Origin: Dehalococcoidia bacterium
Lineage (GTDB): Bacteria > Chloroflexota > Dehalococcoidia > Bin125
Direction of reading: 5' to 3'
DNA: 64,000 bases
NCBI GenBank assembly: GCA_965263065.1
Contig: CBDHGH010000003.1
Location: 1,156,537 to 1,220,536, forward strand
Shown: positions 50,072 to 54,435 of the stretch, piece by piece
Layout of the letters: every line of letters starts with the position of its first letter
Position numbering within the stretch: the stretch's first letter is position 1
Program-made: the position numbers and the translations under genes
Notes under the pieces: generated by a model
What the model saw: only the letters and a program-made list of their open reading frames with translations
Databases searched by the model: none
Told to the model about the DNA's origin: nothing

Positions 50072-51046
50072 TCAGAGCATCGCCCGCAGTTGGTCGCGCG
50101 TCACGTTCGCGCCCGAGACGACCAGCACCACTCGCTTGCCCCGCAGGCGACCGCCGTCGCCTGAGTTCGCCTCGTGCAGCGCTGCTGCGGTGCTCGCCGC
50201 GCCGGAGGGCTCGGCCAGCACGTGCGCCAGGTCGAGCAGCGTCCGCACCCCCTCCTCGATCTCCGAGTCCTCGACCAGCAGGAAGTCGTCCAGCGACGCC
50301 AGGAGGCCCAGCGGATAGGCGAACGCGCCCGCCGTCGCCAGCCCCTCGGCGATCGTCGTGTTGGGCCGCTCCAGTGGCGTCCCCGCCCGCCACGAGTCGT
50401 GCAGCGCCGGCGCCTGCGCCGACTGCACTGCCCAGATCTGGGCCGGGTGCCCCAGCCCGTCGCGCACCGTCACCCAGCCGCACCCGCCCGACCCGCCCCC
50501 CGCCGGCACGATCACGACCTCCGTCTCCGGCCCCTGGTCCTCCAGCACCTCCAGCGCCGCCGTCCCCACCCCCGCCACCAGCAGCGGCTCGTCCGACGAG
50601 TGCACGTAGCGCAGCCCCCGCTCGGCCGCGAACTCGGCCGCCGCCCGCCGCGCGTCGTCGTAGCGCGCCCCGCGCAGCGTCACCGCCGCCCCCAGCCGCC
50701 GCATCGACGCCACCTTGTCGGCGTTCGCCCCCTCCGGCGCGAACACGTGCGCCCGCACCCCGAACAGCTGGGCGGCGTACGCGATCGACTGGCCGTGGTT
50801 CCCCGTCGATGCGACCACCACGCCCGTCTCGCGCTCGGCCGCCGGCAGCCGCGAGATCAGGTTGATGCCGCCGCGCAGCTTGAAGACGCTGATCGGGTTG
50901 GCCGTCTCGAGCTTCAGCGAGACGTGCGCCTCCAGCCGCTCCGACAGCCCCGGGCTGTAGACCAGCGGCGTCGGCAGCGGCACGTGCGCCGCGATCGTGT
51001 CGGCAGCGCGCCGCACGTCGTCGAGGGTGGGAGGTGGCGTCGTCAT
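50072..51046 (-). CDS. PLP-dependent threonine/serine dehydratase (fold-type II, catabolic-type, no ACT domain)
   Basis: The Lys motif region (ETANPISVFKLRGG), the glycine loop (SGANVTRDQ is Gly-rich) and the VASTGNHGQ motif are present. Its ATG overlaps the stop of the LRR gene (ATGA). Confidence 0.75.
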   Translation of the reverse strand: MTTPPPTLDDVRRAADTIAAHVPLPTPLVYSPGLSERLEAHVSLKLETANPISVFKLRGGINLISRLPAAERETGVVVASTGNHGQSIAYAAQLFGVRAHVFAPEGANADKVASMRRLGAAVTLRGARYDDARRAAAEFAAERGLRYVHSSDEPLLVAGVGTAALEVLEDQGPETEVVIVPAGGGSGGCGWVTVRDGLGHPAQIWAVQSAQAPALHDSWRAGTPLERPNTTIAEGLATAGAFAYPLGLLASLDDFLLVEDSEIEEGVRTLLDLAHVLAEPSGAASTAAALHEANSGDGGRLRGKRVVLVVSGANVTRDQLRAML

Positions 51047-54000
51047 CGGTACAGGCTACGCGCGATCGCGATTGCTATTTCCAGATCGTTGACGCTCGGG
51101 TGGATCGCGGTCACGGCGTATTCGATGCTCGTCTCCTCGTGGAAGATCTGCACCTTGGTCCGCGAGTCCGGCGAACCCCCCGGGTCGTATGACAGGAGCG
51201 CAGCGTGGCCGTCGATGATGCGCAACTCGGTAACCTGCCCAGCGACCGGGCGCGACGGGCCGCGCCTGCCCGCCGGGCGATAGTCGACCAGCCGGACTTC
51301 GGTCCAGAGCGCTTCGGCGCCGCCCGGTTCGTCGTATCGGGCCACTACCTGCACGGGGAGAGGTCCGTGTTCATCCCCCCCACCGTTTTGGGCCTGCGAG
51401 TGTGCCAAGGACCACCCCAGAGGCAGGTCCGGGTCGCGCCACAACGGGTGCTGCCGGTGCTGCGCGGGATCAAGCGATGGCCAACGGAGCGTTCCGTCGG
51501 GGGAGCGAGCGCCAGCGGGAGCAGCGATCGGAACCCAGCGCTCGAAGTGTCCGTCCCACCGCCGGGGATACAAGATGTATGGCCCGTGGCGGACTGGTGA
51601 CGTTATATCGGGAGAAGTGATGGTCGGGGGGCCCCACCGGATGCCGGCCGAGATATCGGCAGGGACGGAGCCCGTGCAGCCCGTGCCTGCGTAGGTGATC
51701 CAGTCGATCGCGAAGTGCTTGCGTGGCTCGGTGCCCGGCCGGTCCGGCATCAGGGCCGTGACTTCGTAGCGGATCCAGCAGTCGTCCGCCTCCCACCACT
51801 CGAAGACATCGCCCACCGTGGCCTCTTCGTAAGTGCTGGCGCGCGACATCCCCTCCGCATCAACCGGATGGATGCGCAACCCCGCGGCCTCCCCCCGCAA
51901 CCCCTCATACGTGGTGATCACGTCCCCGGCACTGTCCAGGAACGCGAAGCTGCCTGCGGTCGCCACCTCCCCCGACGCGTCGAGCCGGTTGTAAGGCGCG
52001 GTGCGGCGCGAGACCCTCGTCGCCGGGATCGGCCCCGTGAGTCGGTTGCCGTCCAGCCGCAGTTCCCGCAGCTTGGCTAGCCTGGCGAGTGATGCCGGCA
52101 CCGGGCCGCTGAAATGGTTGCCATCGAGGCGCAGTTCCCGGAGGTCGTGCAGGGATCCCAGAGCCTCGGGGACCACTCCGCCCAGTTGGTTGTCGCTCAA
52201 GTCCAGGAACCTCAGATTCGACAGGTCTCCCAACGCTCTCGGGATTGGGCCCGTAAGCTTGTTCCCGTCCAGACGCATGGACCACAGATTCGACAGGGCC
52301 CCAAGCCTCAGCGGGATCGATCCCGCGAGTTGGTTGTCGTGGAGCCTTAGGGACCACAGGTTGGACAGTTCTCCCAGTGCCGACGGGATCGGGCCCGTGA
52401 GTTGGTTACCGTCCAGCCACAAGTACTCCAGGGCGGACAGTTCTCCCAGTGTCGCCGGGATCGCGCCGCTCAACTGGTTCCCACTCAACCCCAGGACTTC
52501 GAGGTGGCGCAGATCTCCGAGTGCTCCCGGGATCGGGTTCCCGAGATCGTTGTCCTGCAACCGCAGTTCCCGCAGCCCACCCAGCGCACCGAGTTCCGCA
52601 GGGATCGTGCCCGCCAACTTGTTCCCACTCAGGTCCAAGTGCTCCAGTTCGCTCAAGGCCCCCAGTGCTGCCGGGATGGTCCCACTGAGTTGGTTATCGT
52701 TCAGCCGCAGTTCCCGCAGATTGGCTAGGGTTCCCAATTCCTCCGGGATTGTGCCTGTCAACCGGTTGCCGTCCAGCCGCAGATCCCACAGTCGGTCCAG
52801 CGCCCCCAGCTCCGCCGGGATTGCGCCCGCGAGTTCGTTGTCGCTCAGGTGAAGGGTTCCCAGCGTGCGCACGGCCCCGAGCTCGGCGGGAATCGGGCCA
52901 CTCAACTCGTTGTCGTTCAAGTCCAGACGCCACAGGTACGGAATGGCGGCCAACTCCGATGGGATCGGGCCGGTGAGCCGGTTGCCGTCCAGCCGCAGCC
53001 ACTCCAGGTTCGGCAGGGACCCCAACTCCGCCGGGATCGGGCCGCTCAGGCGGTTGTTGTGCAGCCACAGCGTTTGGGCGGGTAGCGCCCCTAGCTCTGC
53101 AGGGATTGGCCCACTCAGGTCGTTGTGGTCCAGCCAAAGATGCCGTGCGGACAGGCGCCCCAGCGATGCCGGGATCGGGCCGCCCAGCTGGTTGTGACCC
53201 AGATTCACCCAAGACAAGCGCGGCATGCCCCCCAGTTCCGCGGGGATTGGTCCGCTGAGTTGGTTGTCGTTGAGCCATAGCCACCACAGGCGTCGCAGAG
53301 ACCCCAACTCGGCGGGGATCGCTCCTGTCAGCAGATTGTCGCCCAGCCACAGGTCTCCCAGTTCGGCGAGTCCGCCTAGTCCCGGCGGGATCTGGCCTGT
53401 GAGTCCGCGCGACGTGAGATCCAGCCCGTGCACGCGCAGAGGCACTCCGCCGAGCGTGATGCCTTCCCACTCGATGATCGGGGTGTCGACGTCCCAGTTG
53501 AGCGTGGCCTTGCCGGCGAGCACATCCTGCACGGCGAGCAGGGTGGCACAGTCACTGACGAGGCCGGGGTGGACTCGGGGCTCGGCCACGACCGTGCCGT
53601 TCGCACACGGCTGCGCGGACACGCTCGGCGGGAGCGGCGGCGTCGGGCAGTCCTCGAGACCGACTTCGGCGAGGTCGTGACCGCGCACGTCCCGCAACTC
53701 CGGCGGGACGCAGCCCGTCAGCCCGGCGTTTCCCGCCAGATGCAGCCGCTCCAACCTGTTCAGGGACACCAACTCCGCCGGAATCGCGCCCGTCAACTGA
53801 TTGTCGTTCAGATGCAATTGCTGGAGTCTCCGCAGACGGCCCAGTTGCGGCGGGATTCGGCCCTTCAGACCTCTCGACGCCAGAGCCAGCCGCCACACGG
53901 GACCCCGCGACTCTCTGACATCGACCCCCTCCCACTCCCCCATCGGCCTCCCCGCATCCCAGTTCAACGACGCTTCGCCCGACAGCGCGTCCCGGATCGA

Positions 54001-54435
54001 CAGCAGGATCGCGCAGTCACCGACCAACTCGGGATTCTCCTCCGGCCTCGGAACCGCGATCCCGTTCTCGCACGACGCCCGTGCTTCCTCCTCTGTAGGC
54101 GGCTCCGGCTTCACTTCGGACGCTTCGACATCCCCCGAGGGCTCCTCCTCCACCGCCGACGCCGTCTCGACCTCTGTCTCCCCCTCCCCCTCTGCGACCT
54201 CAGCCGACTCGCTGGTCTCCTCTTCCGGCTCCTCCAGCTTCTCAATCTCTGCCTCGACCTCCGGCGCCTCAGCCTCCGCCTCCTGCGCCACGGCTTCGAC
54301 GACCTCGGCGGGCGCCTCCGCGACCTCCCGCTCCCCCGTCTCCTCCCCACTCCCCCGCAGCACCACCGCCGACACCGCGCCGGTTACCACCACCACCACC
54401 ACCAACAGCCCCAACACGACGGCGCGCACACGCAC
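51043..54435 (-). CDS. membrane-anchored giant leucine-rich-repeat protein, plant-specific (24-residue) LRR type with two LRRNT-like caps and unknown C-terminal domain
   Basis: An N-terminal TM (LGLLVVVVVVTGAVSAVVL), then a ~110-aa E/A/P acidic stalk. Two Cys-containing cap modules follow (CENGIAVP...DCAILLSIRDALSG...LNWD...WEGV and CANGTVVA...DCATLLAVQDVLAG...LNWD...WEGI). About 22 tandem repeats of LxxLxxLxLxxNxLSGPIPAELGx come next, then ~340 aa with no known motif. Confidence 0.8.
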   Translation of the reverse strand: MRVRAVVLGLLVVVVVVTGAVSAVVLRGSGEETGEREVAEAPAEVVEAVAQEAEAEAPEVEAEIEKLEEPEEETSESAEVAEGEGETEVETASAVEEEPSGDVEASEVKPEPPTEEEARASCENGIAVPRPEENPELVGDCAILLSIRDALSGEASLNWDAGRPMGEWEGVDVRESRGPVWRLALASRGLKGRIPPQLGRLRRLQQLHLNDNQLTGAIPAELVSLNRLERLHLAGNAGLTGCVPPELRDVRGHDLAEVGLEDCPTPPLPPSVSAQPCANGTVVAEPRVHPGLVSDCATLLAVQDVLAGKATLNWDVDTPIIEWEGITLGGVPLRVHGLDLTSRGLTGQIPPGLGGLAELGDLWLGDNLLTGAIPAELGSLRRLWWLWLNDNQLSGPIPAELGGMPRLSWVNLGHNQLGGPIPASLGRLSARHLWLDHNDLSGPIPAELGALPAQTLWLHNNRLSGPIPAELGSLPNLEWLRLDGNRLTGPIPSELAAIPYLWRLDLNDNELSGPIPAELGAVRTLGTLHLSDNELAGAIPAELGALDRLWDLRLDGNRLTGTIPEELGTLANLRELRLNDNQLSGTIPAALGALSELEHLDLSGNKLAGTIPAELGALGGLRELRLQDNDLGNPIPGALGDLRHLEVLGLSGNQLSGAIPATLGELSALEYLWLDGNQLTGPIPSALGELSNLWSLRLHDNQLAGSIPLRLGALSNLWSMRLDGNKLTGPIPRALGDLSNLRFLDLSDNQLGGVVPEALGSLHDLRELRLDGNHFSGPVPASLARLAKLRELRLDGNRLTGPIPATRVSRRTAPYNRLDASGEVATAGSFAFLDSAGDVITTYEGLRGEAAGLRIHPVDAEGMSRASTYEEATVGDVFEWWEADDCWIRYEVTALMPDRPGTEPRKHFAIDWITYAGTGCTGSVPADISAGIRWGPPTITSPDITSPVRHGPYILYPRRWDGHFERWVPIAAPAGARSPDGTLRWPSLDPAQHRQHPLWRDPDLPLGWSLAHSQAQNGGGDEHGPLPVQVVARYDEPGGAEALWTEVRLVDYRPAGRRGPSRPVAGQVTELRIIDGHAALLSYDPGGSPDSRTKVQIFHEETSIEYAVTAIHPSVNDLEIAIAIARSLYR
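51950..53450. repeat. tandem 72-nt coding repeats (24-aa plant-type LRR units)
   Basis: A periodic ...ctgttcccactcaggtccaag.../...ccgggatcgggcc... pattern every 72 nt within the LRR gene. Confidence 0.7.

What the first reader, a model, noticed from the sequence alone, without database searches (positions are those of the whole stretch)
51043..54435. 1130-aa surface protein with plant-receptor-kinase-type LRR ectodomain architecture, co-transcribed with a PLP dehydratase
The repeats follow the 24-residue plant-specific consensus LxxLxxLxLxxNxLSGxIPxxLGx rather than the 20-22-residue bacterial/typical class. They are preceded by two modules (…DCAILLSIRDALSG…LNWD…WEGV…) that look like the LRRNT_2 N-terminal cap of plant LRR-RLKs.

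The protein is anchored by an N-terminal TM helix, followed by an ~110-aa acidic stalk. It ends in a ~340-aa domain with no motif I can place (contains CWIRYEV, GTGCTG and a W-rich segment). Its stop overlaps the start of a threonine/serine-dehydratase-like gene (ATGA), and a pterin dehydratase gene diverges from that.

This may be a horizontally acquired eukaryote-like module or a lineage-specific adhesin/receptor. The functional pairing with an amino-acid dehydratase is unexplained.
Basis: partly seen in the sequence, partly recalled or inferred. Interest (0 to 1): 0.7.

Follow-up and report, generated by a model that had tools for sequence, protein, structure and literature searches.

The report
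Swappable plant-type LRR surface protein
This gene encodes a membrane-anchored bacterial surface protein built from plant-receptor-style leucine-rich repeats plus a previously undescribed two-lobed domain; it belongs to a rare, often multi-copy family found in Chloroflexota genomes including marine-sponge symbionts, it is exchanged as a unit between strains, and its link to the neighbouring dehydratase gene appears incidental.

Summary
ORF 51043-54435(-) encodes 1130 aa with these parts:
- an N-terminal TM anchor and a 90-aa stalk (40% D+E);
- a mini LRR domain (cap, 3 repeats, Cys C-cap);
- a second cap with 20 repeats of exactly the plant-specific 24-mer LxxLxLxxNxL(T/S)GxIPxxLGxLxx;
- a ~320-aa C-terminal domain with no Pfam or PDB sequence match.

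The caps are LRRNT_2-like in fold and register. They fall below Pfam threshold and have a different cysteine pattern.

The C-domain defines a rare family: 623 clusters among 1.84 billion representatives. It occurs almost only in Dehalococcoidia-type MAGs, some from sponges. One 2.5-Mb genome holds at least 23 paralogs, with a constant N-lobe and a variable second lobe that is probably the PsbP/Mog1-like part.

The dehydratase pairing is not a family feature: 0 of 62 other loci have it.

New finding: a strain whose flanks differ by ~4% has one difference in 3,157 bp across this gene (P~3e-50). The tract ends exactly at the stop codon. A third strain carries a 57%-identical interior. The locus therefore swaps alleles.

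Most likely it is a surface ligand-recognition or adhesion protein of the "eukaryote-like protein" kind. I rate it a new variant of a known kind.

The parts
51043..54435 (-). Whole gene, 1130 aa plus stop codon
   Evidence: ORF list. Shine-Dalgarno-like GGGAG upstream of the GTG start. The gene is intact in alleles P0096 and P0202.
54358..54423 (-). N-terminal transmembrane anchor (aa ~5-26), preceded by MRVR. Predicted N-in / C-out, with no lipobox.
   Evidence: It is the only segment with Kyte-Doolittle(19) above 1.6; the maximum is 2.88.
54085..54354 (-). Acidic stalk (aa 28-117): 40% D+E, pI 4.05, no Cys. It contains a 21-bp-period repeat and is length-polymorphic between alleles.
   Evidence: 36-bp and 6-bp indels; 84.6% nt identity to L066.
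53914..54072 (-). Cap 1 (aa 122-174): C-x18-C, then the LL-helix, LNW, then WEGV. LRRNT_2-like.
   Evidence: Cap HMM E=4e-26. AF2 helix 18-33 plus strand 54-56. Foldseek and phmmer place it against plant caps.
53647..53895 (-). LRR module 1 (aa 181-263): three plant-specific-type repeats, the last merging into a Cys-Cys C-cap (C242, C263).
53449..53607 (-). Cap 2 (aa 277-329), with cysteines C277 and C296.
   Evidence: Cap HMM E=7e-24. 'EWEGIT' aligns to GSO1 'SWTGVTC'.
52000..53433 (-). LRR module 2 (aa 335-812): 20 plant-specific-type repeats of 24 (two of 23) residues. The concave face is rich in Trp, His, Asp and Arg.
   Evidence: Concave positions are 13% Trp against 0% on the convex side.
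51571..51999 (-). C-domain N-lobe (aa 813-955), beta-rich. It carries the invariant EW..DCW.RY and GC.G motifs, and the pair C886/C920.
   Evidence: AF2 model with pLDDT 88. Invariant columns. This lobe is constant among paralogs.
51412..51570 (-). Trp/Pro-rich connector (aa 956-1008) with the HPLWRDPxLPxGW motif.
51043..54199 (-). Recombination tract: 3,157 bp with one difference (at 51732) relative to strain L066, whose flanks are ~4% diverged.
   Evidence: Binomial P(<=1) = 3e-50. The 3' boundary lies exactly at the stop codon.
50072..51046 (-). Downstream threonine/serine-dehydratase-like PALP gene; its start overlaps the LRR stop codon (ATGA). It is a neighbour and not part of the family signature.

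Best explanation
The gene encodes a cell-surface ligand-recognition or adhesion protein of a high-GC Chloroflexota bacterium, probably Dehalococcoidia-type and plausibly a sponge symbiont.

How it is built:
- An uncleaved N-terminal TM helix anchors it (N-in, C-out).
- A ~90-aa polyanionic stalk holds the rest away from the membrane.
- The ectodomain has four disulfide-stapled modules: a 3-repeat capped LRR domain, a 20-repeat plant-type LRR solenoid with a Trp/His/Asp/Arg-rich concave face, and a two-lobed C-terminal domain.

What is inferred about function:
- Binding is performed by the LRR concave face and by the second lobe of the C-domain.
- Because the cytoplasmic tail is only ~4 residues, the protein cannot signal by itself. 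It acts by binding: of host matrix or cells, other microbes, or particles.

Family and population behaviour:
- It belongs to a rare modular family (C-domain, with or without cap/LRR or fn3 modules) that is expanded in some genomes as a constant scaffold with a variable head.
- At this locus whole ectodomain alleles are exchanged by homologous recombination between strains. This suggests selection on what the surface displays.
- The ATGA overlap with the PALP dehydratase reflects compact gene packing in this lineage and not a shared function.

Shown: anatomy, fold relationships, family distribution, allele exchange.
Inferred: surface exposure, binding function, host relevance.
For: Topology:
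- There is a single N-terminal hydrophobic segment, a stalk with 40% D+E, and exactly 8 ectodomain cysteines in four module-specific pairs.

LRR type and caps:
- The concave positions are 13% Trp, against 0 of 158 convex positions.

C-domain:
- The AF2 model has pLDDT 88 and pTM 0.86.
- No enzyme family is hit in Pfam or PDB sequences.

Family:
- 28 indexed hits, and 623 clusters in the full scan.
- Paralogs carry lipoprotein-type signals and PT linkers.
- Partner domains are LRR and fn3, both extracellular.
- Loci lie in Dehalococcoidia/Tepidiformaceae MAGs, including Ircinia ramosa and Aplysina aerophoba bins.
- One 2.49-Mb genome has 23 distinct paralogs with cap identity 92% and the C-domain from profile position ~120 onward variable.

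Allele exchange:
- 1 difference in 3,157 bp where flanks differ by ~3.8%, P=3e-50.
- A second allele class has a 57%-identical interior between ~93%-identical ends. It is intact in P0203 and IS-disrupted in L001.

PALP:
- It is absent from the other 62 family loci.

Literature context:
- LRR and fn3 'eukaryotic-like proteins' are enriched in sponge symbionts, including Chloroflexi (PMC6306507, PMC11706023, PMC9531527).
Against: - No ligand is known, and there are no expression or localisation data.
- The window's own organism and habitat are inferred from relatives. The many UUID-named MAGs carry no habitat label in the outputs.
- Between alleles, concave and convex variable LRR positions diverge equally (37% vs 36% identity). 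There is therefore no specific signal of diversifying selection on the presumed binding face.
- One natural allele is IS-inactivated (L001), so the gene is dispensable at least in that strain.
- The N-lobe, which is the most conserved part, has no fold assignment and could hide a catalytic site.
- The ATGA overlap with PALP is conserved in all three strains examined, so co-transcription is likely, even if not functionally meaningful.
Confidence: 0.6

Rival explanations
1. The LRR ectodomain is a recently and horizontally acquired eukaryotic (plant-like) receptor module.
For: - The best PDB sequence and fold matches are exclusively plant LRR-RLKs and SERKs.
- Six of 18 family caps weakly hit Pfam LRRNT_2.
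- The gene has the lowest GC3 in the window: 0.81 against a mean of 0.92.
Against: - Identity to plant proteins is only ~25-34% and concentrated at scaffold positions.
- The cap cysteines are C-x18-C upstream of the helix and not the plant pair around WxGVxC (sequence).
- The window's own caps miss the Pfam model even at E<=10.
- The module is fused to a domain seen almost only in Dehalococcoidia-type MAGs.
- Low GC3 is systematic for the family, in 49 of 56 loci with p=5e-8.
- Plant-specific-like LRRs are also matched in Xanthomonas XopAC/XopAE models.
- An ancient transfer in either direction cannot be excluded.
Confidence: 0.1
2. The LRR protein and the PLP-dependent dehydratase form a functional unit, for example a sensor or binder that feeds an amino-acid catabolic enzyme, expressed as one translationally coupled operon.
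For: - The 4-base ATGA overlap is conserved in three strains.
- Both genes are on the same strand, with no terminator-like site between them.
Against: - None of the other 62 loci encoding the C-domain family has a PALP gene within +-8 kb.
- The recombination tract stops exactly at the LRR stop codon, so the two genes have different histories: PALP is 94.9% identical and the LRR ectodomain is 99.97% identical.
- In L001 the LRR gene is IS-disrupted while PALP stays intact.
- The protein has no cytoplasmic domain to communicate with an enzyme.
Confidence: 0.06
3. The C-terminal domain is an enzyme or a polymorphic toxin head delivered by a conserved N-terminal scaffold.
For: - Paralogs have a constant N-part and a variable C-part and lie in tandem gene arrays, which resembles polymorphic toxin loci.
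- The N-lobe has invariant E, D, R, Y, W and C residues.
Against: - The variable lobes remain homologous and alignable throughout, unlike swapped toxin domains.
- The fold matches are to immunity, binding or sensor proteins and not to toxins.
- No immunity-like small gene follows; a PALP enzyme follows here, and paralogs or housekeeping genes follow elsewhere.
- There is no PADLOC, PHROG or Pfam enzyme hit.
- The two invariant Cys look like a disulfide pair like those of the other modules.
Confidence: 0.1
4. It is a structural component of the cell envelope or S-layer and not a specific recognition protein.
For: - It has an N-terminal anchor plus a long acidic spacer, like other tethered extracytoplasmic proteins in this genome.
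- The family is abundant in some genomes.
Against: - Extreme allelic and paralog diversity, IS inactivation in one strain and copy number ranging from 1 to >=23 are unusual for an essential structural protein.
- LRR solenoids with aromatic concave faces are typical binders.
Confidence: 0.1

Closest known systems
Plant LRR receptor-kinase / co-receptor ectodomains (GSO1, FLS2, TDR/PXY, SERK/BAK1, BIR)
   Same: - Both have the 24-residue plant-specific LRR consensus.
- Both have an N-terminal cap made of a helix plus a WxGV strand, and a Cys-containing C-cap.
- The mini-domain (cap + 3 LRRs + C-cap) superposes on SERK ectodomains at ~2 A.
   Different: - The anchor is an N-terminal TM helix and not a C-terminal TM plus kinase.
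- There is no cytoplasmic domain.
- The cap disulfide is placed differently.
- The protein ends in a bacterial two-lobed domain.
- Sequence identity is only ~25-34%.
'Eukaryotic-like proteins' (LRR class) of marine sponge symbionts
   Same: - Homologues occur in Ircinia and Aplysina symbiont bins.
- LRR and fn3 partner domains match the ELP classes reported as enriched in sponge microbiomes, including SAR202 and Caldilineae Chloroflexi (PMC6306507, PMC9531527).
   Different: - The ELP category is defined only by Pfam repeat hits.
- The plant-type caps, the new C-domain, the constant/variable paralog design and the allele swapping shown here were not found described in the searched literature.
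Xanthomonas type III effectors XopAC/AvrAC, XopAE and XopL
   Same: They are bacterial proteins whose LRRs score against the same repeat type: NCBIfam XopAC E=4e-54 and XopAE E=4e-51.
   Different: - Scores are far below the family cut-offs (184 vs 450 bits; 174 vs 600 bits).
- The effectors are injected cytosolic proteins with Fic or E3-ligase domains.
- This protein is membrane-anchored and disulfide-rich.
Surface LRR adhesins of pathogens (Listeria internalins, Leptospira LIC11098/LIC10831)
   Same: They are bacterial cell-surface LRR proteins used for host binding, and are weakly matched.
   Different: - Their repeats are shorter and of non-plant type, with different caps.
- They use LPXTG/GW or lipoprotein anchoring and have an Ig-like inter-repeat domain.
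- NCBIfam scores are far below cut-off (76 vs 1600 bits).
PsbP/Mog1-like secreted binding and sensor domains (PsbP, PknH sensor, LpqN, Mtc28, Apa) and RseB/MucB
   Different: - There is no sequence similarity.
- Foldseek finds nothing at E<=1e-3.
- The conserved N-lobe and the Trp-rich connector have no counterpart.

Membership tests
Plant-specific (PS) class of leucine-rich repeats | A 24-residue unit with consensus LxxLxLxxNxL(T/S)GxIPxxLGxLxx | tested here: met
   All 18 full-length repeats give exactly this consensus, and 20 repeats sit at spacing 24 or 23.
Plant-specific (PS) class of leucine-rich repeats | The closest characterised relatives are plant LRR-RLK/RLP ectodomains and not 'typical' or 'bacterial' class LRRs | tested here: met
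   The top 36 PDB sequence hits are plant proteins (GSO1 6e-176). Leptospira LIC11098 comes 37th at 1e-69.
LRRNT_2 (Pfam PF08263) N-terminal cap | Scores above the Pfam gathering threshold | tested here: not met
   Neither cap of this protein hits at E<=10. Six of 18 family caps hit weakly, best E=0.0021.
LRRNT_2 (Pfam PF08263) N-terminal cap | An amphipathic helix followed by a short strand (WxGV) that caps the first LRR, in register with plant caps | tested here: met
   The AF2 model has helix 18-33 and strand 54-56. SERK/BAK1 align over 112-142 of 151 columns. TDR aligns query 27-129 to chain 9-118. GSO1 and FLS2 WxGV motifs are aligned.
LRRNT_2 (Pfam PF08263) N-terminal cap | A cysteine pair flanking the WxGVxC motif (from established knowledge of plant LRR-RLK caps) | tested here: not met
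   The cysteines are C-x18-C upstream of and at the start of the helix (C122/C141, C277/C296). There are none around WEGV.
Plant-type LRR receptor kinase (whole-protein architecture) | An ectodomain followed by a single TM helix and a cytoplasmic kinase | tested here: not met
   The only TM segment is N-terminal, and no kinase or any other cytoplasmic domain is present.
Sponge-symbiont eukaryotic-like proteins (LRR class) | Carries Pfam LRR domains (PF00560, PF12799, PF13855) | tested here: met
   These are the same accessions used to define the class in PMC11706023.
Sponge-symbiont eukaryotic-like proteins (LRR class) | Encoded by a sponge-associated symbiont | tested here: inconclusive
   Homologues occur in Ircinia ramosa (SB066x) and Aplysina aerophoba (APA) bins. 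The window's own source, and that of the UUID-named MAGs, is not given.
Sponge-symbiont eukaryotic-like proteins (LRR class) | Modulates interaction with host cells (e.g. phagocytosis) | not testable with these tools
   This needs experiments.
New C-domain family (defined here by alignment A4) | A ~316-position profile with invariant EW, DCW.RY, GC.G, LW..P..P and a terminal S-L motif | tested here: met
   The window protein aligns over the full length and has all the invariant residues. The family has 623 clusters.
PsbP/Mog1-like fold (part of the C-domain) | An antiparallel sheet packed by helices, superposable on PsbP, Mog1 and PknH-sensor structures | tested here: inconclusive
XopAC / XopAE / XopL type III effectors; internalins | NCBIfam score above the curated cut-off | tested here: not met
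   Scores against cut-offs are 184 vs 450, 174 vs 600, 71 vs 500 and 76 vs 1600 bits.
Diversity-generating retroelement target | A template repeat near-identical to the variable region located nearby | tested here: not met
   No second copy of any C-domain DNA exists in the 64-kb window.

The most novel reading that the evidence does not exclude
The C-domain family is a dedicated variable surface-recognition system of host-associated Chloroflexota. A constant scaffold (anchor, linker, plant-type capped LRR, N-lobe) presents a hypervariable second lobe. Diversity arises from paralog expansion (>=23 genes in a 2.5-Mb genome) and from recombinational exchange of whole alleles between strains. In this reading it resembles antigenic-variation or self/non-self recognition gene families, and it governs recognition by, or evasion of, the sponge host or phages.
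Probability: 0.2. Interest if true: 0.8.

Novelty: new variant of a known kind. Interest (0 to 1): 0.55.

Why it matters
LRR "eukaryote-like proteins" are a recurrent but mechanistically opaque signature of sponge symbionts. This case turns one of them into a concrete, testable object.

- It has a defined topology and confident models of its modules.
- It carries a new ~320-aa domain that could be registered as a family: 623 clusters, with no Pfam or PDB relative.
- It has a clear constant/variable design.
- There is population-genetic evidence that selection or exchange acts on this gene specifically: one difference in 3.2 kb against ~4% flank divergence, and a second allele class at 57% identity.

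It also shows that a plant-type LRR with an LRRNT-like cap exists as a stable bacterial module with its own disulfide pattern. That bears on how the "plant-specific" LRR class arose. Finally, it warns against reading function into a 4-base gene overlap.

Tried and rejected
- Cap alone in the indexed protein search: cap2 found nothing. The cap profile returned only 51-92-aa ORF fragments. Both were uninformative about distribution.
- Cap profile against PDB sequences: no hit at E<=10. The register had to be shown with the longer module-1 query.
- AFDB50 fold search: the library was unavailable.
- Foldseek of the C-domain against PDB: nothing at E<=1e-3.
- C-domain profile against PDB sequences and Pfam: only noise, e.g. 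MeCP2 at E~1.
- Phage origin: no relative in viral contigs and no PHROG for the C-domain.
- Defence system: no PADLOC hit.
- DGR-type diversification: no template repeat in the window.
- Recent repeat amplification: TRF finds only a weak 72-bp array (2.2 copies, 78%), so the LRRs are old at the DNA level.
- Promoter/terminator scan: uninformative in this high-GC DNA.
- Low GC3 as evidence of foreign origin: rejected, because it is family-wide.
- Faster divergence of concave LRR positions: not seen.
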